A stretch of 28,035 nt of DNA, taken from positions 1 to 28,035 of the IMG/VR virus record IMGVR_UViG_2563366924_000006; one strand, given 5' to 3'. The notes beneath the pieces are model-generated. The model had not been told where the DNA came from. It saw nothing but the letters and a program-made list of their open reading frames with translations, and made no database searches. Position 1 is the first letter of the stretch. Each line of letters begins with the position of its first letter. The translations under genes and the position numbers were made by a program. Origin of the DNA: a virus. Taxonomy: Duplodnaviria; Heunggongvirae; Uroviricota; Caudoviricetes. Shown piece after piece: positions 1-28,035 of the stretch.

Positions 1-159
1 AACCTGTAGAGACTTAATTTTACCCAAAGTAATACCCAGTATTTATATGGTTTTGTATATTAAATCATATGTGCCGCCGTCATGGAACACAGTTAGAAAC
101 AATGCGAAATGTTATCAAACATGATGTTCACCCTAACCCTTTTTTGAGTTGGTCATCGG

Positions 160-445
160 AAAACCGTCACAACCGTCACACCCTTTCAAAACACCTCATA
201 ACCACATGAAATAATTATCGAAAAGTTGTGACGGTAAAACCATCACAAACCGCAACAGAAACCGTCACAGAAAAAATAATTCTTAAAATTCATGTGATTA
301 AAAAATGCATATGTGATCATTATAAACCGTCACACCGTGATGGTTTTGTGATGCTTTTGTGATGGTTTTCATTTCTTGATTTATTTATATATATCATATA
401 GATAATAATACTTTTTAAACCTTGTGACGTTTGTGACGGTTTTCC
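160..445. repeat. Array of about 11 copies of a 9-bp repeat AACCGTCAC (variant AACCATCAC) in both orientations, in AT-rich non-coding DNA; candidate replication origin or arm-type protein-binding sites
   Basis: Direct copies at about 162-170, 171-179, 238-246, 259-267, 325-333; inverted copies (GTGACGGTT / GTGATGGTT) at about 228-236, 337-345, 348-356, 359-367, 424-432, 433-441. A very AT-rich stretch at about 361-420 lies between repeat blocks. No convincing ORF. Confidence 0.6.
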
Positions 446-1068
446 GATGCCCCCCCTCAAATTTTGAAAACTTCGCTATTGGCTGGATTTCACCCTGAAT
501 TGTTGGTTGTTTTGTATGTGTAAGTGTTGTGGGTTAGTTATGGTGATATCGGTGTGTGATGTACAAGTGGTGCACAGGGCTGACAGTGCAAGTCATTGCA
601 ATGGCGTAAAAGCTACCAACAAGACGCAACCCCGCACCAGATAAGGCTTTGCCAAACTCAGCCATGAACGATCGCCAATAAAATCCGTATGTCAGGAACT
701 CACGAAAACCACCTAACTCATTGTTATTATTTGTGTTGATTTTCATCCTCGAAATTTGGCCTGCCCGCTCAACTGAAATCCACTGAAATTCATTACATTC
801 TGTGCAATTGCCATTTATCTCGGAATCCCCAGCACTGGCGCGGCCTGCGGGGAGCAATTGCACAAATCCCCAACTGAAAAAACTTTATGACGCAAAGAGC
901 GCAGGCGGGTGCGGTGTAGCGCGGTTTCCGTGATGCGATTCGTTCCGTGGGTGGCTGCGGCTGCGTTTCTGCGGGCCGCTGTGGTGACGATCCTTTCTTG
1001 CCCATGCGTTGACGTGATGGCGCTTTTGCGTGGCCTGTGGTGCGTTCTGGGGGCTGTATTTGAGGTAC

Positions 1069-1092
1069 AAAAAAGCCCGCGCGCGGCGGGCT
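1069..1092 (-). terminator. Rho-independent terminator of the late tail operon
   Basis: GC-rich inverted repeat AGCCCGC / GCGGGCT (about 1074-1080 and 1086-1092) with a 5-nt loop, followed on the minus-strand transcript by a U-run (plus-strand A-run 1069-1073). Lies about 20 nt downstream of the stop of the last tail gene (1112). Confidence 0.6.
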
Positions 1093-1111
1093 ATCTCATG
1101 GTGCTGGCAGG

Positions 1112-2809
1112 TCAGGCAATTAAGCCTTTGTATTTATTCTTTGTGGCTGTTGCAGCCGTGGCCGCTGTCGTGAAGTCGGCGGCATTCGTCGGTGCGCCAG
1201 TGTTCTGATGCGTATGCGCAGCACAGAACGTGGCTACCTGCTGCATCAGGTCAATAGTTTCCAGCATCATCTGCAAGGTGTTCACTGATTCACTGCCTAT
1301 ATGAACCGTTGGCCCCATCACCTGCTGCCCGCCGGCGGCAACACTCTTACGCAATCCCGCTATCTTCTCAGTCAGCGCCGCGCATTCTGTAGTGATGTTG
1401 CCGTTGACTTTAGTTGACTGATTGCCACCGACTTCTGTCGTGGCGTCCTGCGCCACATGCGCGACGTAGTTTGCCTGGGTTCCGATGGCGTAATCACCGG
1501 TGCTGGCCTGTTGAATGGCACCGGCCATGAGCCTGGCTGGCCCCATCACTTTGGTTGTATCACCGGCGTGGATAGTCGTATCACGCTGCGTGATTGTGCG
1601 GCTTTCCGTGTCGGCCTTAACCTCACGGTGCATGGATGATTCCGCAATCGTCTGGTCAGTGGTGCGCTGCATATGCCCTTCAACGGTGACGCGCGTTGCC
1701 ACGCCTTCACGTTGCTGCTGCAGCTGCTCGCCGGGCTTCACATTCGGCAGGCTGGTACCGTCCGGTAACGTCTGGCGAATAAAGGGCTTATCCGGGCGAC
1801 CATCCATAAATGCCACTTCAACCAGTGTCCCGACCGGCGGGAACTGGAACATGCCGCTGTCATGGCCAGCCATTGGCACCGGCAGCTGGACCGCTTTATA
1901 AACCGGTGTATCTCTTACCGGGTTGCCGTCTGCGTCCTGCAGCTGCAGATCCACGGCATAGCGTGGCCGAAACTCGTTAGCAATGTTGCCACTGCTCACC
2001 GGCTCAGAATGCGCAATCACCCTCGCAACCCGGGGAACATGCAGCCCGCCGGCAATCTCCGGACACACGGCCTCAAGCTGGCGGCGTATCAGGGGCTTAG
2101 TTAACGGATTGCCGGCGGCATCAAGCGGCGTCCATGTCAGCATCATGTCATCGTTCATCAGCCCGACTTTCGTTACCCGCTGACCATTCACCATCGCACC
2201 CGGTCGCAGTGTTGGCACCATCGGGATTGTCATCGTATCGCCGGCTGCTGATGCCTGGCTGAACTCATGCGGAATATCGACCGGCTTATTTGCCAGTAAG
2301 CTGTGCGCATAGCTGCCGGTGAACATGTCGCCATCAGGCAGCTGATACCAGACATAATCAGGAATGCTGAAGGATTTCCCCAGAATGGCCAGCAGCTGCC
2401 AGCCAGTGCCGGCATGGGTGAAATGGGCAATTGGTTTGTCGGTGTAGTCGGCGTTAGCGGGAAGCGTAAACGCCAAACCAGTATGGCTTCCCAGCCATTC
2501 AGCAACGATGCGTAAAGTAGGATGCTGGAACGAGCAGGGAATTGGCTTATCAAGTTTACCCGCCAGCTCCCGCACAAACAGTTTCGCGCTGCCGTTCTCT
2601 GCCGGCTGCGACCGCTCAACATACCCGGTAAACCAGCGATACATCATATCCGGGTATCCAATATCAAGGCGCACCAGTTTGCCGGTGTAATCATCACTGG
2701 TCACGGCGGTAATAAAACCCCGACCGCCTGATGACATTTCCAGTACCAGATTGACATCAGACAGGGGAATTTCGTCACCAGAAAGATAAAGACGTTTAAT
2801 CGGGCGCAT
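1112..2809 (-). CDS. Baseplate central spike protein, gpV/gp5-like, possibly a hub-spike fusion (565 aa)
   Basis: Motif FPPVGTLVEVAFMDGRPDKPFI resembles the gpV/VgrG OB-fold signature; C-terminal HTHQNTGAPT resembles the gpV spike-tip motif. Last gene of the tail operon, stop overlaps the start region of the upstream gene. N-terminal half not confidently assigned. Confidence 0.5.
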   Translation of the reverse strand: MRPIKRLYLSGDEIPLSDVNLVLEMSSGGRGFITAVTSDDYTGKLVRLDIGYPDMMYRWFTGYVERSQPAENGSAKLFVRELAGKLDKPIPCSFQHPTLRIVAEWLGSHTGLAFTLPANADYTDKPIAHFTHAGTGWQLLAILGKSFSIPDYVWYQLPDGDMFTGSYAHSLLANKPVDIPHEFSQASAAGDTMTIPMVPTLRPGAMVNGQRVTKVGLMNDDMMLTWTPLDAAGNPLTKPLIRRQLEAVCPEIAGGLHVPRVARVIAHSEPVSSGNIANEFRPRYAVDLQLQDADGNPVRDTPVYKAVQLPVPMAGHDSGMFQFPPVGTLVEVAFMDGRPDKPFIRQTLPDGTSLPNVKPGEQLQQQREGVATRVTVEGHMQRTTDQTIAESSMHREVKADTESRTITQRDTTIHAGDTTKVMGPARLMAGAIQQASTGDYAIGTQANYVAHVAQDATTEVGGNQSTKVNGNITTECAALTEKIAGLRKSVAAGGQQVMGPTVHIGSESVNTLQMMLETIDLMQQVATFCAAHTHQNTGAPTNAADFTTAATAATATKNKYKGLIA

Positions 2810-3324: not shown

Positions 3325-3358
3325 GATGATGGCCTCGCCATCAAGAGCCAGAATGATG

Positions 3359-4060: not shown

Positions 4061-4587
4061 CACGGGCGCTCCGGCCAGATGATTTCAGGTGCGGTACTAA
4101 TATCAAGACGGCGCAGAGCAGTACGATAAATACGCCATGCGGCGAGTTCTGCCAATTCTTCAGAAGTTATATCGCCATCATCCTGCGCTTCAGCCAGCGA
4201 GTTAATACGCGCACTGGCTAATGCCATTTCACTGTCGCGCCGCTGTGTCGCTACGGCTAGAGCATCAACAGGCACGGGAATGATTTTTCCCTGGCTAAAC
4301 AACCACTCACCCGATTCACCATTAAAAGCCTCCGGGACATCGCTCATATTGATTTCAGCGACGGAGAGATTAACTGGCCTGAGCATGGTGGCATCTGATG
4401 ATGCGGCGATAATACGACCACTATGATCATAGGTAAATTTCAACGTGTCCTCTGCAAATTGTGCACGCCGGTGATACCAGTCGATCCCCTGGTCATCTTC
4501 ACAAAATTCAATATTGAAAGATGCTTTTAAATCCTCCTGAACCGGCGTCAGGTCTGTACTAATCTTGAAGTTTTGAAAATTTTTCAT
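4060..4587 (-). CDS. G: Tail fibre assembly protein (P2 gpG-like chaperone)
   Basis: 175 aa, immediately downstream of the tail fibre gene; C-terminal region (ELAELAAWRIYRTALRRLD...) resembles the tail-fibre-assembly domain. Confidence 0.75.
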   Translation of the reverse strand: MKNFQNFKISTDLTPVQEDLKASFNIEFCEDDQGIDWYHRRAQFAEDTLKFTYDHSGRIIAASSDATMLRPVNLSVAEINMSDVPEAFNGESGEWLFSQGKIIPVPVDALAVATQRRDSEMALASARINSLAEAQDDGDITSEELAELAAWRIYRTALRRLDISTAPEIIWPERP

Positions 4588-4588
4588 T

Positions 4589-6781: not shown

Positions 6782-6799
6782 TTTTTCTTCCCTGAAATC

Positions 6800-7333
6800 T
6801 TATTTTGATGCGGTATAAACCACGTAATCACCGGTGAACCACCCGGCACGAACATCCAGCTCGTTAATGGTGATCACTTCATAATCATAGCGGCGGCAGG
6901 TTCGGCCATACTGGCGAATAATTTCCCGTAACAGTGCGCCGTTCGCCGCTATCTGGCCATCACTCACCCGGATGGTGATAACGTCCCAGTCCTTTCCCTG
7001 CTGCCGTTCCTGAAGCTCCACATAACCGATACCCAGCCGATGAAATATCGCAATAAATCCTTCGACGCTGCCGGCATCACGCGCATTTATCCATGCATAG
7101 GCCACACGCTTGCGAAACAAATCGAGAGGCTCGCCACTGAAACGGGTGATATCCCGCTCCCATGCCAGCAGATTCAGGAGGGCTTCCGGGCACGTCAGGG
7201 GGTCGAACTGTTTTGATGGCCATAACAACCAGTCATACAGCCATTGCCAGAACTTTTTGCAGGCGGTCAGCAACTTTGCCAGCTCGCCTTTGTCCATCCA
7301 GAACGGGAGTTTTAGCTTAGAAAAATCAGGCAT
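6800..7333 (-). CDS. I: Baseplate protein, P2 gpI-like
   Basis: 177 aa (P2 gpI is 176 aa); motif DPLTCPEALLNLLAWERD resembles recalled P2 gpI DPDTCPANLLPWLAWAFSVDRW; lies between J-like and H-like genes as in P2. Confidence 0.7.
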   Translation of the reverse strand: MPDFSKLKLPFWMDKGELAKLLTACKKFWQWLYDWLLWPSKQFDPLTCPEALLNLLAWERDITRFSGEPLDLFRKRVAYAWINARDAGSVEGFIAIFHRLGIGYVELQERQQGKDWDVITIRVSDGQIAANGALLREIIRQYGRTCRRYDYEVITINELDVRAGWFTGDYVVYTASK

Positions 7334-8507
7334 TCTTCAGCTCCACAGTAAGCGATGTCAGGCGCGGCACTTCCAGCTGGCTGGTGATGTCTTTGATGGA
7401 AAACTCCACCGAATCGACACCGCTCAGTAATTCGTGCAACTCCCTGCCAAGCTGTGAAAATGAGAAACGCGAATAAGGCCATGTCTTCACCACATCCCAG
7501 GCAGTATTTTCACGAAATGCGCAACGGATCAGGCTTTCGACATCACTTTTTAGCGCGGCTTGCGCTTCATCGCTTAGGTTGGAAAGATTGACCACGTACA
7601 CCGTTGCCGTCAGGTCACGGTGCGTTTCGGGCATGGCCATGCATTGCATATCATCGCCATGGCCGTGATGCCCCTGCGTATTGATAAAATCATTGACCGC
7701 ATCAATAAACGGCTGCGATGCCTGACCACTGTCGAGCAGCAGATATGCGTTTGCCGTACCGGGCCCGCGCGGTGCGTCATGCTTAAAGAAGATGCGATCC
7801 ACTGACAGCGCCACCACTTCCGCAATCATGCTGCGGTAAATCGCATCGGTATGATAATTACCTACCAGGTTGAACTGGTTGCGGCAACGTTCGCGCAGTT
7901 CATCATCTGATTCGTCATCGCCACCCGGTTGCGTCAACCAGTCATCCTCTGTCACCGCGCTGGCAATGCCAGGCACGGCCACCGGCAGAATACGGTAATA
8001 ACCGGGTGCCAGATTCCATGCAGCCCCCGCGCCATTGGCCTGTACTGGCACCAGAGCTGAAGCGACGTTTGCCGGGATGATTGTGTCAGCGGTGACGGCA
8101 AGCTGATAAATAACGCCATTAATCCGCTCAGTCTGCACAACCGTACCGGCTGGCACTGTTGCCACCTGGCCGGCGGTAATTTTGGTAAAACGCACTACCC
8201 CCTGCGCCGCGCTGGCGGGTTTCGGTGTGACATTCAGCCCCCACGCCAGCAGACGCAAAAGCGAGCCGGTCGCAGTGGCCACAAACATGTTGGCCATGAC
8301 AATGTTAATCAGCGCACTGATGATCCACATCACCGGCGTGGTGATTAGTGCCGTGACCAGACGCCAGAACGGAGACATGCGGGAGGTATTCGTCACAAAC
8401 CCCTCGGCTTTCACCAGGCGGTTAAATTCCGCTTTTACGGCTTCTTCAGTAACCGGCATTCCTGCATCCTGCAGGACTTTTTCAAAATCAGCCTTCGGCT
8501 TTTCCAT
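7326..8507 (-). CDS. Baseplate J-like protein (gpJ / gp6 family)
   Basis: Contains the Baseplate_J-type acidic motif GGDDESDDELRERCRNQ. Start placed at the ATG at 8507, which has a strong GAGGGAG ribosome-binding site; the ORF track extends it to 8549. Confidence 0.75.
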   Translation of the reverse strand: MEKPKADFEKVLQDAGMPVTEEAVKAEFNRLVKAEGFVTNTSRMSPFWRLVTALITTPVMWIISALINIVMANMFVATATGSLLRLLAWGLNVTPKPASAAQGVVRFTKITAGQVATVPAGTVVQTERINGVIYQLAVTADTIIPANVASALVPVQANGAGAAWNLAPGYYRILPVAVPGIASAVTEDDWLTQPGGDDESDDELRERCRNQFNLVGNYHTDAIYRSMIAEVVALSVDRIFFKHDAPRGPGTANAYLLLDSGQASQPFIDAVNDFINTQGHHGHGDDMQCMAMPETHRDLTATVYVVNLSNLSDEAQAALKSDVESLIRCAFRENTAWDVVKTWPYSRFSFSQLGRELHELLSGVDSVEFSIKDITSQLEVPRLTSLTVELKNA

Positions 8508-8829
8508 AATCCACTCCCTCGGATAGCGGCCCAAAATCATAGGTATCACCGGTGATAAGCAGCCTGGTCAGGCTTTCTTCTTCCACCTCTACCGTTCCCG
8601 GAACAATCCTTTCATCACCTTCTACCAGCAGGATTATCTGGGTGAAAATGTCGCTGCGCAGTGTCGGGCTGCGCTCTGCAATTAACGCTGTAGCCAGACC
8701 GCTTTCCATCACCGCATGTACCAGGTCCTGCCCAATGCTGTAGCGGTTATTGCAGGTCATTGGCTCATTGCCGGCATTCAGCACGATATCGCCGCCGGTG
8801 ATGAGCAAATCTATAAATAAATCACTCAT
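8488..8829 (-). CDS. Small baseplate protein, possibly gpW/gp25-like
   Basis: About 113 aa from the ATG at 8829, which overlaps the tape-measure stop (ATGA). Size and position before the J-like gene match gpW; sequence resemblance is weak. Confidence 0.4.
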   Translation of the reverse strand: MSDLFIDLLITGGDIVLNAGNEPMTCNNRYSIGQDLVHAVMESGLATALIAERSPTLRSDIFTQIILLVEGDERIVPGTVEVEEESLTRLLITGDTYDFGPLSEGVDYGKAEG

Positions 8830-18156: not shown

Positions 18157-19041
18157 TCAGATCCAGACTTTGTTTTTTTCGCCTGGATTTGCATCAGGCT
18201 GCTTAGTGGTACTTGTGCCAGCCAGCGCATCAAATTTCTGAGTAATGGCATCCAGTTTTCCATCCAGCTTGGTTTCCAGTTGGGTGAACTGCTCAACCGT
18301 AATACTCGTTACCACTGGCTTTTCTTCCGGTTTAACCTCCGGTTTTGCTGGCTCTGTAACTGGCTTGTCACCGGCATTGAACGCTTTCACCTGTTCCTGA
18401 ATGCCGGCAATAGCCGTATCCTGTTTTTCCATGCGCCCCATCAGCGCATCAAACTGTTCCTTGGTCATTTCGTCTTCTTCCGTGTTATGGGTTTGGGTTT
18501 CTTTGTTGCGACTAAATAGACGCGACAGAAACGATTTATCACGTGCGCTGGTTGGCTCATCCGCTTCTTTAAGCGCTCCGAGTGAGAAGGTTTCAACACT
18601 ACCGCGCACCACTGGTGACTCATGACCATCGATGCTAAACATCAGGCGCTCAGTCCCGAGACTTGCGGGGATGTCGGTCACAGCCAGGCCCATCAGATAG
18701 TACTTACCGCTATTAGCGAAATTGGGTATCAGTTCAACAGAAGTGAATAATTTTTGACCCATTTCATTGGTCGCAATAAGCCAGTCATTCGGCATCAGCT
18801 TTGCGTACATCTTCAGTACGCCATCAACCTTCTCAACTTTTACAGCGTCGATTTCGCCATAGTTGTAGCTCCATGAACGCTGCTCCATCGTTTCATCATG
18901 GCGCGGCCACATCAGACCGGTGTAAACCTGGCGGTTATAAAACTCGGCCGCTTCCTGCAGCCATTCTTCCTTGATTTCTCGCCCGTCAACCGTATTCCCT
19001 GCGGTAGCGATACAAACCCAGTCCGTGCGTAAACGAGTCAT
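18157..19041 (-). CDS. O: Capsid scaffolding protein, P2 gpO-like
   Basis: 294 aa (P2 gpO is 284 aa); resembles recalled gpO in the ATNEMGQKLFTSVELIPNFANSGKYYLMGLAVTD block; AAGGA ribosome-binding site; divergent from the terminase gene. Confidence 0.8.
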   Translation of the reverse strand: MTRLRTDWVCIATAGNTVDGREIKEEWLQEAAEFYNRQVYTGLMWPRHDETMEQRSWSYNYGEIDAVKVEKVDGVLKMYAKLMPNDWLIATNEMGQKLFTSVELIPNFANSGKYYLMGLAVTDIPASLGTERLMFSIDGHESPVVRGSVETFSLGALKEADEPTSARDKSFLSRLFSRNKETQTHNTEEDEMTKEQFDALMGRMEKQDTAIAGIQEQVKAFNAGDKPVTEPAKPEVKPEEKPVVTSITVEQFTQLETKLDGKLDAITQKFDALAGTSTTKQPDANPGEKNKVWI

Positions 19042-19230
19042 AACGTCCTTGTTTCATTGCTTTCCTGACCACAAGTAAAACGGAACTGGCCGTGAAATTC
19101 ACGCGCATCACTTTTGTTGCGTTCCGCTACAGGCTGTTATCGGAACGCATCGGAATCAGGCGAAATGCAACACGTTGCCATCCGGTCACAATAGGTACTC
19201 AAAGGGGCAACACGGGCAATCATCAGGACG
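19042..19230. promoter_or_regulatory. Divergent late promoter region between the O operon (-) and the P-Q operon (+), with a 9-10 bp dyad
   Basis: 189-bp intergenic region. Near-perfect inverted repeat TTGCGTTCCG (about 19117-19126) / CGGAACGCAT (about 19141-19150) with a 14-bp spacer; further CGGAAC/CGGAAT copies at about 19081 and 19151. Confidence 0.5.
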
Positions 19231-21003
19231 ATGGCACAAAAATATTCGGACGAAATCAGGGCAGTGGCGCGGCAGCTGTACCTGAAGCGATGGACACCGC
19301 AGGAAATCAAAGAGGAATTAAAACTCCCTTCAGTACGCATCGTTTATTACTGGGCTGAAAAATTCAGCTGGCGGGACATGCTCAGTGAAGAAGGAGTAGA
19401 AGCAGCTCTGTCACGCCGTATTCAGTTACTGACAGACCGGGATAAAAAGACAGATACCGACCTGCGAGAACTGGATCAGCTCGTTGGCCATCACGTCAAA
19501 ATCATGGCGCAGCGGGCAAAACGAGAAGAAAAGCTGCAGCAGCTGCAGAACGGCAATGTGACCACAAATAGCGGTGTCACCCTCACTGATGAGGGTAACA
19601 AGCAGGAGCGCAAAGGCCGCAAAAAGAAAAATGACATCAGCCATCTGACGGCAGAATCTTTTGCAGAATGGGTTTCTGTGCTGTTTGGCTACCAGCTGAC
19701 ATTGCGTGAGAACCTGCATCAGAAAATCCGCAACATCCTTAAAGCTCGCCAGTTAGGTGCAACCTGGTATTTTGCCGGTGAAGCACTGGAAGATGCCGTA
19801 TTAAACGGCAAACCGCAGGTGTTTTTGTCAGCGTCAAAGCGCCAGGCTGAGGTGTTCCGCTCTTACATAGTCAACATTGCCCAGCAATTTCTGGGTGTCG
19901 AACTGACAGGAAACCCCATCCGACTGAGCAACGGCGCAGAACTGAGTTTTCTCGGTACCAACAGCAACACGGCCCAGTCCAACAGCGCCAACGTCTATAT
20001 AGACGAGTATTTCTGGATACCGAAATTCCGCAAACTCAATGACGTGGCAAGTGCGATGGCCACGCACGACAAATGGCGGTTGACCTACTTTTCCACACCC
20101 AGCTCAAAAGCTCATGAAGCCTACCCGTTCTGGACTGGCGATGAATGGCGTCGCGGTCGGGCCGAACGAAAGGACGTTGTATTCCCGAAAGAAGCAGAGC
20201 TGCGTGATGGCGGTCGTCTGTGTCCGGATAAACACTGGCGTTTCATCGTCACTATTGAAGATGCCGTAAAAGCAGGATTTAACCTGGCGAACGTGGATGA
20301 CCTGCGCGACCGCTACAGCGGCCCGGCGTTCGACATGCTGTTTATGTGCGTGTTTGTCGATGATAAAGACGCCGTTTTTGCCTTCGACCAGTTAATGAAG
20401 TGCGGCACCGAACCAGCGTTATGGCAGGACTTTAAACAGGATGAGGCAAGGCCATTTGGCAACAGGGAGGTGTGGGGTGGCTATGACCCCAGTCGCACGA
20501 CGGACAGGGCCATTTTTGTGATTGTTGCACCACCTATTCACGCCGTTGAAAAATTCCGCTTGCTGAAGAAATGGGCCTGGACTGGTCTGTCTTTCAAGTA
20601 CCAGGCAGAACAAATCAAAAAAATCAAAGAACAATACAACCTGACGTACATCGGTATTGATGTGACGGGCATTGGTGCCGGCGTGTTCGACATTGTCAGT
20701 GCATTCGCCCCACGTGAAACAGTTCCCATTCATTACAGCGTGGAAAGCAAGAACCGTCTGGTACTGAAAATGATTGATACCGTTGTCGGCAACCGTATCG
20801 AGTGGGACAGGGAAGATAAGGACATTGCCGCCAGCTTTATGGCCATCAAGCGCACCACAACCAGCAGCGGCAATGCCATGACCTTTGTCGCCACACGATC
20901 AGTTGAAACCGGTCACGCAGACGATTTCTGGGCCATATCTCATGCAATGATTAATGAGCCGCTGAATACCGAACATAAACGCAAATCAAGATGGATTTTG
21001 TGA
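19231..21003 (+). CDS. P: Terminase large (ATPase) subunit, P2 gpP-like
   Basis: 590 aa, the same length as P2 gpP; AGGA ribosome-binding site; followed by the portal gene with a 13-nt overlap. Confidence 0.9.
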   Translation: MAQKYSDEIRAVARQLYLKRWTPQEIKEELKLPSVRIVYYWAEKFSWRDMLSEEGVEAALSRRIQLLTDRDKKTDTDLRELDQLVGHHVKIMAQRAKREEKLQQLQNGNVTTNSGVTLTDEGNKQERKGRKKKNDISHLTAESFAEWVSVLFGYQLTLRENLHQKIRNILKARQLGATWYFAGEALEDAVLNGKPQVFLSASKRQAEVFRSYIVNIAQQFLGVELTGNPIRLSNGAELSFLGTNSNTAQSNSANVYIDEYFWIPKFRKLNDVASAMATHDKWRLTYFSTPSSKAHEAYPFWTGDEWRRGRAERKDVVFPKEAELRDGGRLCPDKHWRFIVTIEDAVKAGFNLANVDDLRDRYSGPAFDMLFMCVFVDDKDAVFAFDQLMKCGTEPALWQDFKQDEARPFGNREVWGGYDPSRTTDRAIFVIVAPPIHAVEKFRLLKKWAWTGLSFKYQAEQIKKIKEQYNLTYIGIDVTGIGAGVFDIVSAFAPRETVPIHYSVESKNRLVLKMIDTVVGNRIEWDREDKDIAASFMAIKRTTTSSGNAMTFVATRSVETGHADDFWAISHAMINEPLNTEHKRKSRWIL

Positions 21004-22034
21004 TGAGCAGAAAGAATAAAAAGCAGCCTGTTACCGCCGAAAACACCGCGCCGGCGCAGCAAAAAATGTCGATGATCTCTTTTGGCAATCCGGAGCGGGC
21101 TATCCTAAATCCGCTCGAGTACGAGCCGGTCTATTTTGACAGTTCCAGCATGTACTACACGCCGCCGGTCAACCGACTGGCACTTGCAGAACTGCCCGAT
21201 ATTAACGGCCAGCATGGCGGCATATTGCGAGCCAGAACCAACATGATCACCGCCGATTTAATCAGTGGTGGCGGTATGCTTCAGGATGATATTCAGGCCA
21301 CAGTGTTAAACCTGCTGACTTTTGGGGATGTGGGGTTGCTCAAATTGCGTAACGCATTCGATAAAGTCATTGGCCTGCTGCCCCTGCCCTCGCTCTATAC
21401 CCGCCGCGGTAAAAACGGAAAGTTTTATGTGCTTCAGAAAAGTGGCCATCTGGAATATGCCAGCGCAGACATTATCTTTGTGAAGCTGTATGACACACGC
21501 CAGCAGGTCTACGGTAAACCGGATTATCTCGGCGGCATTCACTCTGCCATGCTCAATAATGAGGCCACTATTTTCCGTCGTCGCTATTACAAGAACGGCG
21601 CTCATCTTGGGTACATCCTTTACACCACTGACCCGAACATGACAGATGAAATGGAAGATGAGATGAAGGAACAAATTGCTGCAGGTAAAGGTGTCGGTAA
21701 CTTTAAATCAATGCTGATTAACATCCCGAACGGAAAGGAAAAAGGTGTGCAACTGCTCCCGGTCAGCGATATGGGGGCAAAAGATGAGTTTGTTAACATC
21801 AAAAATATCAGCATGCAGGATATTTTGAACGCTCACCGCTTCCCACCAGGCCTCGCCGGTATGATGCCGAACAATAACAGCTCATTCCCCGACATCACGA
21901 AAACCCGCGACGCATACCAGCGTGATGAAGTGATCCCGGTGCAAAAACTCATTAGCGATGCTGTGAACACAGATAAGGAAATACCCGCAAACTTGCGCAT
22001 TAATTTTGCACAATCAAAGCCGAACGAGGCATAA
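20991..22034 (+). CDS. Q: Portal protein, P2 gpQ-like
   Basis: 347 aa (P2 gpQ is 344 aa); EATIFRRRYYKNGAHLGYILYTTDP closely matches recalled P2 gpQ AATLFRRRYYLNGSHMGYILYLTDP. Confidence 0.9.
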   Translation: MDFVMSRKNKKQPVTAENTAPAQQKMSMISFGNPERAILNPLEYEPVYFDSSSMYYTPPVNRLALAELPDINGQHGGILRARTNMITADLISGGGMLQDDIQATVLNLLTFGDVGLLKLRNAFDKVIGLLPLPSLYTRRGKNGKFYVLQKSGHLEYASADIIFVKLYDTRQQVYGKPDYLGGIHSAMLNNEATIFRRRYYKNGAHLGYILYTTDPNMTDEMEDEMKEQIAAGKGVGNFKSMLINIPNGKEKGVQLLPVSDMGAKDEFVNIKNISMQDILNAHRFPPGLAGMMPNNNSSFPDITKTRDAYQRDEVIPVQKLISDAVNTDKEIPANLRINFAQSKPNEA

Positions 22035-22095
22035 TAGCGTGAAAATTAATCATAAGAAGTATTATCGGTTACCGTCAAACGCAAGGAGCAGAGGT

Positions 22096-22356
22096 ATGCG
22101 CATTAAATGTCCTGAGTGTGGATCAAGAGCGATTATTAAAACAACAAATCCAATCCACCCTCAGCTTTCCGAACTCTACTGCGCCTGTGGCGATGTGAAT
22201 TGTGGCCATACATATGTTTTGCAGGTGTCGTTTAAACATACGTTAAGCCCGAGCAGAAAATCACTTGATGATTTACTGGTGGGGTTGATTGGCTCGCTCG
22301 GCCAGAAACAAAAGGCCGAGCTAATCAGCCGGCTGAGTCACTCAGCTGCAGCATAG
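22096..22356 (+). CDS. ogr: Ogr/Delta-family zinc-finger late transcription activator
   Basis: From the ATG at 22096 (AAGGAG ribosome-binding site): MRIKCPECGSRAIIKTTNPIHPQLSELYCACGDVNCGHTY, matching the Ogr Cys pattern (recalled P2 Ogr CPLCQHAAHARTSRYITDTTKERYHQCQNVNCSATF). The ORF track start at 22006 is a TTG. Confidence 0.85.
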   Translation: MRIKCPECGSRAIIKTTNPIHPQLSELYCACGDVNCGHTYVLQVSFKHTLSPSRKSLDDLLVGLIGSLGQKQKAELISRLSHSAAA

Positions 22357-22376
22357 ATATAACTTACCGCCCTTTC

Positions 22377-25031
22377 CTATTTATCCCGACTGAACACCCA
22401 GCAGCGGAATGTTTCTGGCATTCGCTGCATTTCCCCTTTGCCCTTGTTCGCCCGTTCGCTAACCGCACTACGTTTCGTCGTTTGGCCTATGAAACGTCGC
22501 TCACTGCTGCTTTTAAGGAGTTTTTTGATTTCCGTTAATGTGAAATTCATACGCTGCCGGTGAGCTGCGGCGACTTCCTCCATGTGATTAAAGTTAACGG
22601 CTATTTCACTGTCATCTGTTGAATGATTTATACCGAACGGCGCAAGTTCATCAAGATAATCAAACAGCTCCCAGAACTCCTGAACAAGTGGATGATCCTT
22701 TTTGAGTGCATGGCAGCGCTCGATGGCCAGCGCGGTGATGGCTTCACGTGTTTTATGAATACGGTCAACAGAAAGAGGCACAACAAGCGCCAGCGCTTCG
22801 AGCAACCCCGCTAATTGAGCATGGTTTTTCGCTACACGGATATGACGAATATCAGGGTGTGTTTCCAGTTCATTACGGGCGCGTTCATAACCACGGCCAT
22901 AAGCTTCCAGCACTTCCTGTTCTCGCATAATGGACTGCAGAGTAAAGCCTGAAACCTGGCTAACCGGTATTTGCTCAAGGCGTTCAGCTGCGTGGCGGGT
23001 ATGAATAGACTGGCCACGTTTATCGGTATAGATATGAATGATACGCTCCAGAAATGCCTTGCTGCCGTCTGTATCCGCATTCTGTGCTATCACGATAGCG
23101 CCCCGGAATGGCGGCTCGTATGTCTCGTTATTGTTAGATTTGATACCCACGGCGCGGGATGCGCGACCGTTATAAAGGGATTTCAGCTCATCCCAGTCAA
23201 AAGCGCGCTGTTTAGCATTATCCGTGGTGCGGTCACCTTCTATCAGCACTACAGGCAAATTCCCTACCTGTGCAAAGTTACGGCCACGCGCTGCAGGTGT
23301 AGATTTTGACGGGTCAAAACCTTCATATTCTTCACGGCCAGCAAGCTTCCAGAGAAATTCTATCAGGGTAGATTTACCCGTGCCGGGTTCACCGACAATT
23401 TCCAGAAACGGGAAAGATTTATCACGCTCGCGTATCTGTTCAGCAAATAACGAACCCAGCCAGAACGCCAACGCCACATATCCTTTTTCACCAAATGCCG
23501 TCCAGATATCATCCACCCAACCCGTAGTGAACTCATTCAATTTTGGATTTAGATCCAGTGATGGCGTTAGGCTCAGACTTTTAACGCTGGCACTGTTGAT
23601 TTCGAAATAATCCTCATCGTTCATCTCATACAGCTTGCCACTGCAGACCGCCACTCGGTTAAACAACCAGGCTGAATAATCTTTGTTATAGCCGATAAAA
23701 TTCTGCGTTTTCACTTCTTTGATTTCTGGAAGCCGCAACTGGATAAACTTATCCAGCTGTTTGGTACTGCCGGTGTAAACCGCACCTTTAGCAATATGCA
23801 AAAGGCGCTTTTTAAATTCTGCAGAGCTGGTCAGTTGATTCGCAGTAAACGTGTCCTTAATCGCGGGGTGATTGGGCATATTTACTTTCACGTAATACCA
23901 AGATTCATCCGTCGGCTCAGAGCGCTGGTAATACAACGGAGTCAGCCAGCAGTTGGCGATTTCAGTCACGCAGCCAGATTCTTTCACTGCCCGCGCCTTG
24001 GCTTCCCATTCCATCACCACTTCCTGCCCGGAATTAGCGATACGGTCATAGGCTCTCATGTATCTGTCCAGGTCCAGTTCGAACCAGTACATGCGGGAAC
24101 CATGCTCAAAATAGAAGGAATGCCACTCATTATGCTGATGCATCAGCAGGGCTTTTTCAGTCGGGCTTTTTGCCAGCAGAAGATCGCCAAAATAACGATA
24201 GTTTTTGATGTCCGATTTGCTAAATCTGTCGCGGATTAGCAGGTCATTCCAGTCAAGTTCAACTGCTGTTTTGAGCGGCTGCGCCGCCCGGACATCCCAG
24301 CCAGCAGACTTGCTGCGTGATGCAAATGAAAGGGTGTGTTTCGTTCCGGCCTTATCGCCATCAAAGGCCCAAACCAGACGTGGCCGGGGTTTCTCACCCA
24401 GTTCTTTAGCCAGCGCATCGAGCGAGGCCAGAGGATAGTTATTGCTACTGAGTGTAGCCACAGCGGGTAAACCGGCCTGGCATAAACTGAGAGCGTTAAA
24501 AATACCCTCAGTTATCCAGATTTCTTTTGCATCAGGCAGGTGGATAAACGGCGGCACCCACCAGTGACCACCGTAATTGCCTGAGAAATGCGCCTTCTGT
24601 TTGAAACGGTCTGGCTGGTCAATGATGCGCTCCCATGTAGCGCCGTTGGCCAGCTTAAATTTAACAGTGGCACTACCCAGCCCATGACGGACAAACGCGC
24701 CCTGGGTAAAACAACCTTTGAGAATGTCAGTATCAAGGCCACGCGCTTCACGTAAATACGCTTCTGCCGCAGCAGCCGGTGATTCGACTGTTGCGACATA
24801 CCGCTTTGACCAGTCCTCAAAAATATCGGAATACAGCTCTTTGACTGCGACCTCCTTACCGCATTTATTTTCACGGCCACATTTAAGAAGCCAGGGCTTT
24901 TCCGCACTGGTAAATAGTTCGCGTTTCTGGCAAGCAGGGCAAACACCCTGCTGTAAATATTTATCTTTCTCTTTAAATTCAAAATCATTAATGAGACGGC
25001 GAACAACTTCCTGTTGTATGGATACGTTCAT
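22377..25031 (-). CDS. Phage P4 alpha-type primase-helicase replication protein
   Basis: 884 aa; N-terminal zinc-ribbon (CPACQ...CGRENKCG), primase/Toprim-like acidic region (EGIFNALS, WAFDGDKAG), Walker A GEPGTGKST in the central helicase-like domain, long C-terminal domain. Confidence 0.85.
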   Translation of the reverse strand: MNVSIQQEVVRRLINDFEFKEKDKYLQQGVCPACQKRELFTSAEKPWLLKCGRENKCGKEVAVKELYSDIFEDWSKRYVATVESPAAAAEAYLREARGLDTDILKGCFTQGAFVRHGLGSATVKFKLANGATWERIIDQPDRFKQKAHFSGNYGGHWWVPPFIHLPDAKEIWITEGIFNALSLCQAGLPAVATLSSNNYPLASLDALAKELGEKPRPRLVWAFDGDKAGTKHTLSFASRSKSAGWDVRAAQPLKTAVELDWNDLLIRDRFSKSDIKNYRYFGDLLLAKSPTEKALLMHQHNEWHSFYFEHGSRMYWFELDLDRYMRAYDRIANSGQEVVMEWEAKARAVKESGCVTEIANCWLTPLYYQRSEPTDESWYYVKVNMPNHPAIKDTFTANQLTSSAEFKKRLLHIAKGAVYTGSTKQLDKFIQLRLPEIKEVKTQNFIGYNKDYSAWLFNRVAVCSGKLYEMNDEDYFEINSASVKSLSLTPSLDLNPKLNEFTTGWVDDIWTAFGEKGYVALAFWLGSLFAEQIRERDKSFPFLEIVGEPGTGKSTLIEFLWKLAGREEYEGFDPSKSTPAARGRNFAQVGNLPVVLIEGDRTTDNAKQRAFDWDELKSLYNGRASRAVGIKSNNNETYEPPFRGAIVIAQNADTDGSKAFLERIIHIYTDKRGQSIHTRHAAERLEQIPVSQVSGFTLQSIMREQEVLEAYGRGYERARNELETHPDIRHIRVAKNHAQLAGLLEALALVVPLSVDRIHKTREAITALAIERCHALKKDHPLVQEFWELFDYLDELAPFGINHSTDDSEIAVNFNHMEEVAAAHRQRMNFTLTEIKKLLKSSSERRFIGQTTKRSAVSERANKGKGEMQRMPETFRCWVFSRDK

Positions 25032-25071
25032 ATTTAATCCAGATGAAAATAATTCAACGAAAAGGCAAAAA

Positions 25072-25290
25072 TCAGAATTTTATCTGTTTGTTATACCGCT
25101 CATGCGTCATTAATACCCAACGCTGACCTTTATCTTTACTAAGTAAACGCCAGCGTAAAGAAACATGAATAGATAAGTAATGTTTTGGTTTAATGACCTG
25201 ATAAACTTTTCTGCCATCGTAGTATTCACTAAGCATTGAAAATGACTTGTTAATGACATTTTCATTTGCATGAGAAGTCACAATTAACAT
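25072..25290 (-). CDS. Small basic hypothetical protein (54-72 aa) in the AT-rich cargo block
   Basis: ORF starts immediately after the stop of the exonuclease gene; very AT-rich; no clear ribosome-binding site; no family recognised. Confidence 0.3.
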   Translation of the reverse strand: MLIVTSHANENVINKSFSMLSEYYDGRKVYQVIKPKHYLSIHVSLRWRLLSKDKGQRWVLMTHERYNKQIKF

Positions 25291-25292
25291 AG

Positions 25293-25853
25293 CTATTTCA
25301 CACTGTTTTTTATGCCAAGGAACATCCAGATATAAGAAACAATTTTGATATTATGAAGCGCATGTGCCAGTGAGTTACGCTGAAAGTCATATTTAATAAT
25401 GCTATTCATATTCAGCCCAAGTTCTTCTGCTATTGTCACCATGGTAATGACACTCTGCTCATTAGCTTCAAGAAAACACTGACCGGCGAACCTGTCCAGG
25501 TAATGATGTATCACCTTGCTATGCATGGACGGACAACCAAACCAGGTCTTGACGTATTTGGCATCAGAATTTTCAATGATAAACCCGTACAGGTCACAGA
25601 TAGCCAGCTCAATATCCTGACAATCATCATCCAGTATCTGACTGCGAACCTCTGAAGGCTGACGTAACCACCACTGGATAGCGTGGGCACTTACCGTACC
25701 GCCATTACTCATACAGTCATCAAGGCTGATACGTCTGTAGAATTGCTTACCAACCTCCCCAGTTGTAGGGTCAAAGAAAACGGCGCTTAAACCCGTAATA
25801 GCTGCGGTGTGCTTTTCGTCCATCAGTTCTACATCAATCATTAAATGTTGCAT
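25293..25853 (-). CDS. 3'-5' exonuclease, T4 DexA-like (DEDD-type)
   Basis: From the ATG at 25853 (AAGGA ribosome-binding site): MQHLMIDVELMDEKHTAAITGLSAVFFDP... resembles the recalled T4 DexA N-terminus (DFETMG..EKAAVIDLSVIAFDP); second block HAIQWWLRQPSEVRSQI versus STIEWWKNQSPEARKNI. The ORF track N-terminal extension to 25973 is hydrophobic and lacks a ribosome-binding site. Confidence 0.65.
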   Translation of the reverse strand: MQHLMIDVELMDEKHTAAITGLSAVFFDPTTGEVGKQFYRRISLDDCMSNGGTVSAHAIQWWLRQPSEVRSQILDDDCQDIELAICDLYGFIIENSDAKYVKTWFGCPSMHSKVIHHYLDRFAGQCFLEANEQSVITMVTIAEELGLNMNSIIKYDFQRNSLAHALHNIKIVSYIWMFLGIKNSVK

Positions 25854-25866
25854 GTGGATATCCTTA

Positions 25867-26199
25867 TCAGGAAACGTGGCGAGAATTGGAGGAAGTATTA
25901 CGCTTACGCGCAACACTATTAGCAGCCAGAGATATAAGGCCGGGAACACTGCTTTCTTCAGGAACCTGACCACTGAACACCATTAATGTGATGGTGTGCA
26001 ATTCTTCATAGTCTGTTATGTCATTATTAAAATGCGCAGATGACGAAATACCTTCAAGGCATTTTGCCAATTTGATATTCAACTCCATCAACTGCAAAGC
26101 ATCGCTATGAATAGCTGACTGGTCAGTATTGATGTTTTCAATTTGATTATGATAATTCTGCAACAAACTACGAATTATCGTGGCGTATTTTGCTTTCAT
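25867..26199 (-). CDS. Hypothetical early protein (about 110 aa) in the AT-rich cargo block
   Basis: First gene after cox on the same strand; AT-rich; basic Ser-rich C-terminus; start uncertain (ATG at 26199 or GTG at 26232); no family recognised. Confidence 0.35.
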   Translation of the reverse strand: MKAKYATIIRSLLQNYHNQIENINTDQSAIHSDALQLMELNIKLAKCLEGISSSAHFNNDITDYEELHTITLMVFSGQVPEESSVPGLISLAANSVARKRNTSSNSRHVS

Positions 26200-26275
26200 A
26201 ATTAACCCAAAGAATAAATTATTCAATATCACGAATGCTTTTAGAATTACTCACCCATGAGAACACGAGTGATTT

Positions 26276-26572
26276 TTATTGTTTCGCATTCTGCTGTTTC
26301 ATTTTTTCAGTAGTGAATAGGCGGTTTTTCCAGTCATGCCACTCAGGCGGGGCATTCTGTGCCAAGTGGGCAACATATGCATCCCACTCACCTTTATGAA
26401 TATAAACCTCGCCACCTTTTTTTGATGGGTTTAAAGGGTCTTTCATTCGGATTACCGGCAATTTACCAGCTGTCGCCATTTTTCGAATTGCTGCCGGAGT
26501 TTTACCTACATATGCAGCAAAAAGTTCTGGCGTCACAAGGTCTGAAAGCGCGTTTTCGGCTAGTTCTTTCAT
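26276..26572 (-). CDS. cox: Cox-like excisionase / early regulatory protein
   Basis: 98 aa; ...AAIRKMATAGKLPVIRMKDPLNPSKKGGEVYIH...PPEWHDWKNRL resembles recalled P2 Cox (GAVRRMIDKGKLPVIDMTDPQSASGRAGEYWVY...IRDGWLMWLGL); GGAGGA ribosome-binding site; divergent from C. Confidence 0.85.
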   Translation of the reverse strand: MKELAENALSDLVTPELFAAYVGKTPAAIRKMATAGKLPVIRMKDPLNPSKKGGEVYIHKGEWDAYVAHLAQNAPPEWHDWKNRLFTTEKMKQQNAKQ

Positions 26573-26670
26573 CTGTGGTATCCTCCATCAGTTTGGGTTC
26601 CTAAGGCGTTTTAAGTCGTCCTAGGGTTTATTTAGTCAGAAATAACTGACCTAATGATAGTCAGAAGGTT
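26573..26670. promoter_or_regulatory. Lysis-lysogeny switch region between cox (-) and C (+), with candidate operator repeats
   Basis: 98-bp AT-rich intergenic region; direct repeats TAGTCAGAA at about 26633-26641 and 26658-26666 (25 bp centre to centre), a related TAAGTCGTC at about 26612, and a small palindrome GTCAG-N6-CTGAC at about 26635-26650. Confidence 0.6.
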
Positions 26671-26976
26671 ATGACCATGTCAATGAGCTATGCTCAAAAA
26701 TTAAAGAGTATCCGTGCAGCAGAAGGGCTAACGCAAAAACAGCTGTCAGAGCTAACAGGCGTAAGTTTGGGAATGATTAAAAACTACGAAAGTGAACAGC
26801 ATCCAGCTGGCGTTCAGACAGTTGAAAAAGTGATACAGGTCGAAAGGTTCGAAAAATATACACTCTGGTTAATGACGGGAAAAACAGCCCCTGCAGCGGG
26901 TCAAGTTTCTCCGCCTCTCTCCCCTGATGGGCAAGACAAAATAAAATCGCGCCCCTCAGACCAGAAAACTGGCTAA
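26671..26976 (+). CDS. C: Immunity repressor, P2 C-like
   Basis: 101 aa (P2 C is 99 aa); FEKYTLWLMTGKTAPAAGQVSPPLSPDGQ...SDQKTG resembles recalled P2 C FTKYTLWFMTNQIAPESGQIAPALAHFGQ...SGQKTG; HTH-like segment LTQKQLSELTGVSLGMIKNYE. Confidence 0.85.
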   Translation: MTMSMSYAQKLKSIRAAEGLTQKQLSELTGVSLGMIKNYESEQHPAGVQTVEKVIQVERFEKYTLWLMTGKTAPAAGQVSPPLSPDGQDKIKSRPSDQKTG

Positions 26977-27042
26977 TTATCTGGTTTTTCTATTCTTTAT
27001 CACAAAAATTACACAATGATTTTAACATCGGAGGGCTTCGCT

Positions 27043-28035
27043 ATGTCGATTAAGAAGCTTGATGATGGTCGTTTTGAAGTGGATGTAAGACCGCGCGGGA
27101 CTTCAGGAAGAAGAATCCGGCGTAAATTTGACAGAAAGGCAGAGGCCCAGACATTTGAGCGGTACGTACTGACAAACTTTCACGATAAAGAATGGCAGGA
27201 CAAACCGGCAGATCAAAGGCTCGTATCTGAATTGATTACTTTATGGTGGAGTTATCACGGGAAAAATCACAACTATGGTGATTCTTACCGAAAGCGTCTG
27301 GAGAAGATCCACCGCGAAATGGGCGAACCCAGAATCTACATGCTGACCCGTAACTTTTTGATGAAGTATCGCGCTACCAGGTTGCAAAGCGGTGTATCAG
27401 CAGGAACGGTAAACAGAGATTTCAGTGCTATGTCCAGCATGTTTAGCCTGCTGATCGACATGGAAGAATTCCACCATGAAAATCCCTTCCATAGCGTGCG
27501 TAAGCTGAAACTGGAAAACACAGAAATGTCGTTCCTGTCAGAGGATGAAGCTCGGGAATTGCTGAATGCTTTGACTGATGATGACCGCAGAGTTGTAGTC
27601 CTCAGCCTGAATACAGGTGCGAGGTGGGGGGAAGCCAGCAATCTCAAGGCTGAACATGTTATCAGTAATAAGGTGACTTTTGTGAAGACCAAAACAGGCC
27701 CAGCGCGTACCGTTCCGGTTTCACAGGAGGTTGCTGATTATATCCTCACCCGGAAATCAGGAAAGCTTTTTAAAACTGACTACCAGCGCGTTCGTGAGGT
27801 GCTTCGTAAGATAAAGCCCGATTTACCTAAAGGTCAGGCACTGCATGTTTTGCGGCACACCTTCGCAACTCATTTCATGATCAATGGCGGGAATATCATT
27901 ACCCTTCAGAGAATACTGGGGCATACAACGATTGAGCAAACCATGACGTACGCTCACTTTGCCCCGGACTATCTGGCTGATGCAATCAGGTTTAATCCCA
28001 TGAAAGGGAGTGTCCATATAACGTCCACTGACTAG
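27043..28035 (+). CDS. int: Tyrosine integrase, P2 Int-like
   Basis: 330 aa from the ATG at 27043 (GGAGGG ribosome-binding site): MSIKKLDDGRFEVDVRPRG... resembles recalled P2 Int MAIKKLDDGRYEVDIRP; catalytic region LSLNTGARWGEASNLKAEHV, HVLRHTFATHFMINGG and the Tyr in TMTYAHF; TAG stop is the last codon of the window. Confidence 0.9.
   Translation: MSIKKLDDGRFEVDVRPRGTSGRRIRRKFDRKAEAQTFERYVLTNFHDKEWQDKPADQRLVSELITLWWSYHGKNHNYGDSYRKRLEKIHREMGEPRIYMLTRNFLMKYRATRLQSGVSAGTVNRDFSAMSSMFSLLIDMEEFHHENPFHSVRKLKLENTEMSFLSEDEARELLNALTDDDRRVVVLSLNTGARWGEASNLKAEHVISNKVTFVKTKTGPARTVPVSQEVADYILTRKSGKLFKTDYQRVREVLRKIKPDLPKGQALHVLRHTFATHFMINGGNIITLQRILGHTTIEQTMTYAHFAPDYLADAIRFNPMKGSVHITSTD

What the first reader, a model, noticed from the sequence alone, without database searches (positions are those of the whole stretch)
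27043..28035. Window ends exactly at the integrase stop codon, so the attachment site is expected just beyond it
In P2-type phages attP lies next to the 3' end of int. Together with the terminator and non-coding DNA at the left edge, this suggests the window covers nearly the whole element (about 28-30 kb) and that the host junction or att core lies immediately outside it.
Basis: inference. Interest (0 to 1): 0.2.

Follow-up and report, generated by a model that had tools for sequence, protein, structure and literature searches.

The report
P2-type prophage trimmed at integrase stop
The window is an ordinary P2-type E. coli prophage cut at gene boundaries: its attachment-site core lies 94 bases past the integrase stop, in the raiA terminator, while the other end lies 1.2 kb beyond the left edge, past a phage O-acetyltransferase gene.

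Summary
The integrase gene runs 27043-28035 (+), 330 aa, and its TAG is the last three bases of the window.

Public E. coli contigs 100% identical to the window supply both flanks.
- **Right side:** 93 nt of phage DNA follow the stop, then a 14-bp core, CGGGCGCGTTTTTT, then the pheL promoter, pheL and pheA.
- **Left side:** the element runs 1,174 bp past window base 1. This stretch holds a 373-aa O-acetyltransferase gene (its first nine codons are window 1-27, minus strand), its terminator and the second attP arm. The second core copy and raiA follow.

Core-to-core distance is 29,316 bp, so the window holds 95.6% of the element. The target is not a tRNA. It is the 3' half and T-run of the raiA/RaiZ terminator, which integration regenerates.

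attP starts inside the window. Two P2-type Int arm repeats (TGTCCATA, CGTCCACT; 28011-28029) overlap the last int codons, followed outside the window by an IHF-consensus site, the core and a second repeat pair. This layout is colinear with a P2-like phage.

The edge at the stop codon is a trimming artefact: two IMG/VR relatives are cut at the same base. This is an ordinary new member of a known kind.

The parts
27043..28035 (+). int: P2-type tyrosine integrase, 330 aa; the stop codon TAG is the last three bases of the window
   Evidence: An identical protein is found in 24 public contigs, all with pheL-pheA downstream.
27030..27035 (+). Ribosome-binding site GGAGGG, 7 nt before the int ATG
   Evidence: Read directly from the sequence.
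28011..28029 (+). P-arm of attP: two direct Int arm-type repeats, TGTCCATA (28011-28018) and CGTCCACT (28022-28029), 11 bp apart, overlapping int codons 323-329
   Evidence: They match the reverse complement of the P2 arm consensus tgTGGaCa (PMC3448106). The same pair at the same spacing occurs in relative L010 and in a P2-like phage. GTCCAC occurs only twice in the window, against 10.7 expected.
26671..26976 (+). C-type immunity repressor (HTH), upstream of int on the same strand
   Evidence: Pfam HTH_3; PHROG 147.
26276..26572 (-). Cox-family excisionase/repressor, the likely recombination directionality factor
   Evidence: Pfam Phage_Cox, E 3.4e-25.
1..27 (-). First nine codons (TTG start at 27-25) of the phage O-acetyltransferase gene; the rest lies beyond the left edge
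   Evidence: The Pfam Acyl_transf_3 match starts at residue 5 of the 373-aa form. PHROG 3333 aligns from residue 1, E 1.4e-65. BLASTP aligns residues 3-9 to the ESSI2_ev239 enzyme.
162..441 (.). Iteron cluster: 11 copies of AACCRTCACA in two opposed blocks around an AT-rich centre. It belongs to the non-coding left end and is not an att site.
   Evidence: 14 copies in the window against 3.8 expected; 11 fall here. Conserved in L010 and ESSI2_ev239.
1074..1092 (-). Terminator-like hairpin plus T-run after the last tail/baseplate gene
1112..2809 (-). Last late gene: baseplate protein, 565 aa
   Evidence: PHROG 2258, E 1e-233. An identical protein is found in 24 contigs with the acyltransferase and raiA downstream.

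Best explanation
The window is a prophage of the P2 family (Peduoviridae, with the gene order of Escherichia phage ESSI2_ev239) sitting in the E. coli chromosome between raiA and pheL. It was cut out of its contig at gene-call boundaries, so ending on the int stop codon is a trimming artefact. The real attachment apparatus is a P2-type attP of about 215 bp. In the circular phage it reads: int 3' end with two Int arm repeats (window 28011-28029); an IHF-consensus site inside an 11-bp perfect inverted repeat; the 14-bp core CGGGCGCGTTTTTT (94-107 nt past the window end); a conserved TGAAATAAAAGGATTT box; two more arm repeats (GTCCACA, GACCACA at +44 and +55); and the terminator of an O-acetyltransferase cargo gene. 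Int, presumably helped by IHF, exchanges strands within the core, which is identical to the 3' half plus T-run of the raiA/RaiZ terminator. Integration leaves the raiA terminator intact on one side. On the other side the pheL promoter and leader stay intact, behind a weaker phage-supplied hairpin. Cox (26276-26572) presumably directs excision. The prophage is 29,316 bp. The window lacks 1,174 bp on the left (most of the acetyltransferase gene plus the P' arm) and 93 nt plus the core on the right. Shown: the junctions, the core, the empty site, the colinear motif layout and the protein families. Inferred: binding of Int, IHF and Cox to the named motifs, the exact cleavage points, and that the prophage is active.
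For: The window is 100% identical to L005/6/7 over 1-12809 and to L002 over 17043-28035. Right flank: phage DNA, the core at L002 11087-11100, then the Phe leader at 11156 and pheA. Left flank: the acyltransferase, the core at L005 13984-13997, then raiA, bamD, rluD and clpB. The empty site in K-12 has raiA and pheL 103 bp apart with a single core copy at L009 3530-3543, which is the last 14 nt of annotated raiZ. The 40 nt outside each core copy are identical to K-12. No core copy with 2 or fewer mismatches exists inside the window. Core-to-core distance is 29,316 bp. A 78-79% identical relative in a complete genome (NZ_AP023286.1) sits at the same site with the same gene order, including an acyltransferase next to raiA; it shares a CCTTCGGGCGCGTTTT core. 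The ESSI2_ev239 phage genome record (29,203 bp) has int, then 455 bp, then an O-acetyltransferase, then iteron-bearing non-coding DNA, then the baseplate gene, all contiguous. Arm repeats sit at the same positions (23/34 and 197/208) in the window phage and L010. The first P and first P' repeat are 174 bp apart in the window phage, L010 and a P2-like phage. The motif matches the published P2 arm consensus. The raiA terminator fold is unchanged at -14.4 kcal/mol, and the int-side hairpin folds at -10.2. Int is 56.6% identical to P2 Int.
Against: No experiment or read-level evidence of excision or circularisation was available. Both junctions were read from other assemblies, not from the window's own record, although those are identical over the shared DNA. 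The core identity is short (14 bp), and the sequence just left of it differs at two positions between attP and attB, so the exact overlap region is undefined. The acetyltransferase cassette has 32% GC against 51% for the window, and differs between relatives. It is therefore a recent acquisition and could in principle be a separate insertion inside the prophage end.
Confidence: 0.9

Rival explanations
1. One reading: both window edges are essentially the element's ends, with att cores immediately outside on both sides and no further phage gene.
For: The right edge is only 93 nt from the core. The left 1 kb of the window is non-coding and begins after a terminator. The window size falls within the expected range.
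Against: The left core copy is 1,174 bp beyond window base 1, and a complete O-acetyltransferase gene lies between. The window contains no core copy.
Confidence: 0.04
2. The acetyltransferase segment is not phage DNA. It would be a separate island or remnant that happens to sit between the prophage and raiA, so the phage proper ends at the window's left edge.
For: It has a very different GC content (32% against 51%). The cassette is only about 32% identical, over a short stretch, to the one in relatives.
Against: Only two core copies exist, and they enclose the segment. The P' arm repeats needed by a P2-type Int lie between the core and the acetyltransferase terminator, colinear with the P2-like attP. 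The ESSI2_ev239 phage genome record carries an O-acetyltransferase at the same place, directly after int and attP. The protein belongs to a phage protein family, PHROG 3333.
Confidence: 0.05
3. The phage integrates into a tRNA or other RNA gene just beyond int, as phage 186 and HP1 do.
For: Many Peduoviridae integrases use tRNA genes. The core does coincide with the 3' end of an annotated small RNA, RaiZ.
Against: ARAGORN finds no tRNA in the window or within 10 kb of either flank. In the right-hand flank Rfam finds only the Phe leader, 56 nt past the core; its other hits (RyfD and 16S rRNA in L005/L009) lie kilobases from the junctions.
Confidence: 0.01

Closest known systems
Bacteriophage P2 int-attP module (Peduovirus P2)
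   Same: Int is 56.6% identical. attP lies directly 3' of int, which follows the C repressor on the same strand, with Cox divergent. There are two direct arm repeats on each side of the core matching tgTGGaCa. The P' arm (TGAAATAAAAGGATTT...CGTCCACA-N4-GACCACATC, then a terminator) is nearly identical to that of a P2-like record, with the same 174-bp spacing. The site is intergenic and non-tRNA, as is typical for P2-type Int.
   Different: The core and attB differ: the raiA terminator at K-12 2,737,529-2,737,542 is not among the E. coli sites listed in PMC3448106 (2.165, 4.104, 0.950, 2.784 and 3.214 Mb). An O-acetyltransferase and a 1-kb iteron region take the place of ogr next to attP. Tail gene order is HP1-like, and the replication protein is an 884-aa Toprim primase-helicase.
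Escherichia phage ESSI2_ev239 (Peduoviridae, Evevirus; NC_049392.1)
   Same: The gene order matches one to one, including int, attP, O-acetyltransferase, iteron-bearing non-coding DNA and the baseplate gene. Size is 29,203 bp against 29,316 bp. GTCCACA arm repeats and an IHF-consensus site are present.
   Different: Only the primase gene is detectable by megablast (79% identity, 10% of the query). Its attP has a different core: a 44-bp match to another intergenic E. coli spot. Its acetyltransferase cassette is different.
Prophage at raiA-pheL in E. coli 2018-18.25PC (NZ_AP023286.1)
   Same: It uses the same attB with an overlapping core (CCTTCGGGCGCGTTTT), has identical attP motif positions and the same gene order, and carries an acyltransferase next to raiA.
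   Different: int DNA is 78-79% identical, the tail fibre and tape-measure proteins are shorter, and the acetyltransferase allele differs.
Haemophilus phage HP1 integrase/attP
   Same: The HP1 Int catalytic domain (PDB 1aih) matches at E 2.7e-44. The tail genes carry HP1-named Pfam families (HP1_Orf24, HP1_ORF34).
   Different: HP1 targets a tRNA-Leu gene. No tRNA is involved here.

Membership tests
P2-type integrase / attP system | Tyrosine recombinase with the R-K-H-R-H-Y catalytic set and similarity to P2 Int over its whole length | tested here: met
   R194, K217, H268, R271, H294 and Y303 are read in the translation. It is 56.6% identical to P2 Int over 98% of its length. PDB 5c6k matches at E 1.3e-92. 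Pfam Int_N and Phage_integrase both hit.
P2-type integrase / attP system | attP directly downstream of int, with at least two direct arm repeats of consensus tgTGGaCa on each side of the core | tested here: met
   The pairs are GTCCATA/GTCCACT (window 28012-28029) and GTCCACA/GACCACA (+44/+55 after the core), each 11 bp apart and in the same orientation. The consensus comes from PMC3448106.
P2-type integrase / attP system | A core sequence shared by attL, attR and the unoccupied attB | tested here: met
   CGGGCGCGTTTTTT is present at both junctions and once in the K-12 empty site, and the flanks outside it are identical to K-12.
P2-type integrase / attP system | A Cox-family directionality factor and a C-type repressor in a divergent switch next to int | tested here: met
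   Phage_Cox, E 3.4e-25, at 26276-26572 (-); an HTH repressor at 26671-26976 (+).
P2-type integrase / attP system | An IHF site in the arm between the Int arm sites and the core | tested here: inconclusive
   TATCAATAAGTTA matches WATCAANNNNTTR at the same position in the window phage and in L010. This is a consensus match only; binding was not tested.
P2-type integrase / attP system | Demonstrated Int-mediated integration and excision at this site | not testable with these tools
   Only static junctions are available. The polymorphism (empty in K-12, occupied in the contigs) is indirect evidence.
Genus Evevirus (ESSI2_ev239-like Peduoviridae) | Genome-wide nucleotide similarity to the type member. 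The ICTV genus guideline of about 70% is from my own knowledge. | tested here: not met
   Megablast of window 1-25000 finds only the primase gene, at 79% identity and 10% coverage. Gene order is nevertheless the same. More sensitive whole-genome measures were not run.
tRNA-targeting Peduoviridae integrases (186/HP1 type) | attB within a tRNA gene, and arm repeats of the 186 type (tgccGCCActt) | tested here: not met
   There is no tRNA in the window or flanks, and the arm repeats are of P2 type.

The most novel reading that the evidence does not exclude
The raiA/RaiZ intrinsic terminator, immediately upstream of the pheL promoter, may be a P2-type attB that has not yet been catalogued. It is used by a small, rare lineage of ESSI2-like E. 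coli prophages that carry interchangeable O-acetyltransferase cassettes right next to attP. The phage supplies a surrogate terminator half so that neither RaiZ nor the phe operon is disturbed. The conserved iteron block beside the cassette may be the still-undefined replication origin of this phage group.
Probability: 0.45. Interest if true: 0.25.

Novelty: new member of a known kind. Interest (0 to 1): 0.15.

Why it matters
This matters mainly for housekeeping. Provirus records trimmed at gene boundaries can lose att sites and cargo genes. Here the lost piece is the one gene most likely to change the host's phenotype, an O-antigen-type acetyltransferase. Anyone using the window as "the phage" would miss about 4% of it, including both att cores. 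The work also adds one well-defined integration site (the raiA terminator) to the list for P2-type integrases, with a complete, colinear attP that could be tested directly. It shows once more how these phages target a terminator and rebuild it.

Tried and rejected
- **tRNA target:** ARAGORN found none in the window or in either 10-kb flank.
- **Att core inside the window:** there is no copy with 2 or fewer mismatches. The 3-mismatch hits are near chance level, and the one at 1070-1083 is just the late-operon terminator.
- **Left end in complete E. coli genomes:** megablast found no match, so annotated context had to come from a 78-79% relative.
- **Close phage relative by DNA:** only the primase gene of ESSI2_ev239 matched.
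- **The CCGTCACA repeats at 162-441 as Int arm sites:** rejected. They lie more than 1.3 kb from the core. The true arm repeats have a different motif (GTCCAYA) that matches the published P2 consensus and sits at conserved distances from the core.
- **Literature on raiA/yfiA-pheL as a prophage site:** nothing relevant was found. Karlsson et al. 2006 (PMC1482927) is not held.
- **Promoter for the acetyltransferase in window 1-1300:** no sigma-70 consensus match.
- **First attempt at the int frame:** 27044 was off by one.

Full report
**1. Observation**

The last bases of the window read ...acgtccactgacTAG, so the stop codon occupies 28033-28035. The frame opens mechanically at 27016. It is also the start used in all public gene calls for the identical 330-aa protein.

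The protein carries Pfam Int_N and Phage_integrase. It is 56.6% identical to P2 Int over 98% of its length. It matches PDB 5c6k, labelled only "Integrase", at E 1.3e-92, and the HP1 integrase domain 1aih at E 2.7e-44. The catalytic residues R194, K217, H268, R271, H294 and Y303 are all present.

Upstream lie an HTH repressor (26671-26976, +) and a divergent Cox-family gene (26276-26572, -).

**2. What lies beyond the edges**

The window is 100% identical to three E. coli contigs over 1-12809 (L005-L007). It is 100% identical to another contig over 17043-28035 (L002). These contigs supply both flanks.

- **Right flank.** After the int stop come 93 nt of phage DNA, then CGGGCGCGTTTTTT (L002 11087-11100). 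Next come TTGACA...TACTGT, the Phe leader and pheL (Rfam RF01859 at 11156-11281), then pheA, tyrA and aroF.
- **Left flank.** Window base 1 corresponds to L005 12809. L005 12810 is the ATG of a called 364-aa Acyl_transf_3 gene. That gene is followed by a hairpin terminator, about 75 nt of DNA, the same 14-mer (L005 13984-13997), and then raiA, bamD, rluD, yfiH and clpB.
- **Empty site.** In K-12, raiA and pheL are 103 bp apart with a single copy of the 14-mer (L009 3530-3543). The 40 nt outside each prophage junction are identical to K-12.

The insertion, counted as one core copy plus the phage DNA, is 29,316 bp. The window holds 95.6% of it. It lacks 1,174 bp on the left and 93 nt plus the core on the right. 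No copy of the core with 2 or fewer mismatches occurs inside the window.

**3. The left-hand gene belongs to the phage**

Four lines of evidence support this.

- Only two core copies exist, and they enclose the gene.
- A relative 78-79% identical in int, in the complete genome NZ_AP023286.1, sits at the same site with the same order: baseplate gene, about 1 kb of non-coding DNA, an acyltransferase, then raiA.
- The Escherichia phage ESSI2_ev239 genome record (Peduoviridae, Evevirus; 29,203 bp) has int, then 455 bp, then an O-acetyltransferase, then non-coding DNA, then the baseplate gene, all contiguous.
- The protein matches phage family PHROG 3333 "O-acetyltransferase" (E 1.4e-65) from its first residue.

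That last alignment, the Pfam domain starting at residue 5 and a BLASTP alignment of residues 3-9 all show the true start is the TTG 27 nt upstream of the called ATG. Window 1-27 (minus strand) therefore already encodes the first nine codons.

The cassette has 32% GC against 51% for the window. It is only distantly related to the cassette of ESSI2_ev239, with 32% identity over 96 aa. It looks like an exchangeable cargo gene.

**4. Anatomy of attP**

I joined the two prophage ends to reconstruct attP and compared it with the relative L010 and with a P2-like record, L014. The three are colinear.

- Two direct repeats lie 11 bp apart and overlap the end of int: window TGTCCATA at 28011-28018 and CGTCCACT at 28022-28029, covering codons 323-329.
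- An IHF-consensus match (TATCAATAAGTTA, minus strand) sits inside an 11-bp perfect inverted repeat.
- The core follows.
- A conserved TGAAATAAAAGGATTT box comes next.
- A second pair of direct repeats (CGTCCACA-N4-GACCACA) starts 44 nt after the core.
- A terminator closes the region.

The repeats sit at positions 23/34 and 197/208 in both the window phage and L010. The first P repeat and the first P' repeat are 174 bp apart in all three phages.

The motif is the reverse complement of the published P2 arm consensus tgTGGaCa. [quoted passage not shown] GTCCAC occurs only 4 times in the 29.3-kb phage on both strands, and 2 of those are in these arm pairs. Within the window it is depleted, at 2 observed against 10.7 expected.

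attP therefore begins inside the window, even though its core does not.

**5. The target**

The core is the 3' half of the stem plus the T-run of the raiA terminator. It coincides with the last 14 nt of the annotated small RNA RaiZ.

- On the raiA side the hairpin is unchanged after integration, at -14.4 kcal/mol in both forms.
- On the int side the phage supplies GCACCTC in place of GCGCCTT. This gives a weaker, imperfect hairpin (-10.2 kcal/mol) between an A-run and the T-run, directly in front of the intact TTGACA of the phe promoter region.

The relative L010 shares CCTTCGGGCGCGTTTT with attB. Strand exchange must therefore lie within the 12 nt common to both phages, CGGGCGCGTTTT. This last step is inference.

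No tRNA occurs in the window or within 10 kb on either side.

**6. Why the window ends on the stop codon**

Both edges coincide with gene-call boundaries: the int stop on the right, and on the left the base next to the called ATG of the acetyltransferase. Two independent IMG/VR records, 96-97% identical in int, also begin with CTAGTCAGTGGACG, the complement of the same stop codon.

This is the signature of provirus trimming at the last gene scored as viral. It is not a biological end.

**7. Comparison with known systems and novelty**

Every defining feature of a P2-type int/attP module that could be tested in silico is met (see the membership table). The phage has the gene order of ESSI2_ev239. 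At the DNA level, however, only the primase gene is similar by megablast, and ESSI2_ev239 uses a different, 44-bp core.

The raiA-pheL site is not among the E. coli P2-like sites listed in PMC3448106, and three literature searches returned nothing on it. The library is incomplete, so I do not claim the site is undescribed.

A full-length homologue of this int occurs in only 18 of 5,426 complete E. coli genomes.

Overall this is a new member of a known kind, and the finding itself is of low interest.

**8. Limits**

- The junctions were read from other assemblies identical to the window, not from the window's own record.
- Binding of Int, IHF and Cox to the named motifs, the cleavage positions, and the activity of the prophage are all inferred.

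Noticed in passing
window 162-441: There are eleven copies of AACCRTCACA, five on the + strand and six on the - strand, in two opposed blocks around an AT-rich centre (about 370-420). The whole window has 14 copies against 3.8 expected. The same iterons occur in the homologous non-coding region of relatives L010 (27730-28003) and ESSI2_ev239 (L011 28384-28658). This is a candidate replication origin for the 884-aa Toprim/DUF5906 primase-helicase at 22377-25031 (-).
   Followed up: partly
window 1-27 (-), continuing in L005 12810-13904: The window's first 27 bases are the first nine codons (TTG start) of a 373-aa O-acetyltransferase (PHROG 3333, Pfam Acyl_transf_3). It has 32% GC against 51% for the phage. 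It is a likely lysogenic-conversion cargo gene, and its allele differs from those in relatives at the same position.
   Followed up: partly
window 28023-28028 and whole window: The hexamer GTCCAC, the heart of the Int arm site, is depleted in the phage: 2 observed in the window against 10.7 expected. One of the two is the arm site at the int stop.
   Followed up: no
L011 26852-26895 (ESSI2_ev239 attP): A 44-bp stretch of the relative's attP matches an unannotated intergenic spot in 4,488 of 5,426 complete E. coli genomes at about 98%. It is presumably that phage's own, longer att core at a different site.
   Followed up: no
int protein residues 112-329 (window 27376-28029): PDB chain 9i5v_14 is labelled 'Ribosome-associated translation inhibitor RaiA' (401 aa) yet matches this integrase at E 2e-10. 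The label is odd, given that this prophage sits next to raiA. It is probably a naming error in the entry.
   Followed up: no
window 25072-25290 (-) and 25293-25973 (-): A 72-aa ParE_like protein and a 226-aa Rv2179c-like 3'-5' exoribonuclease lie in the early operon between the Cox gene and the primase gene.
   Followed up: no
L002 11023-11057 (30-64 nt past the window's right edge): A perfect 11-bp inverted repeat (GGCACTCTTAA / TTAAGAGTGCC) brackets the IHF-consensus site in the P arm. An imperfect equivalent is present in relative L010.
   Followed up: no
window 534-863 (-) and 909-1208 (+): Two mechanical ORFs (109 and 99 aa) in the left non-coding region have no Pfam or PHROG match. The second overlaps the end of the baseplate gene and is called as a gene in some public contigs. 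Both are probably spurious.
   Followed up: partly
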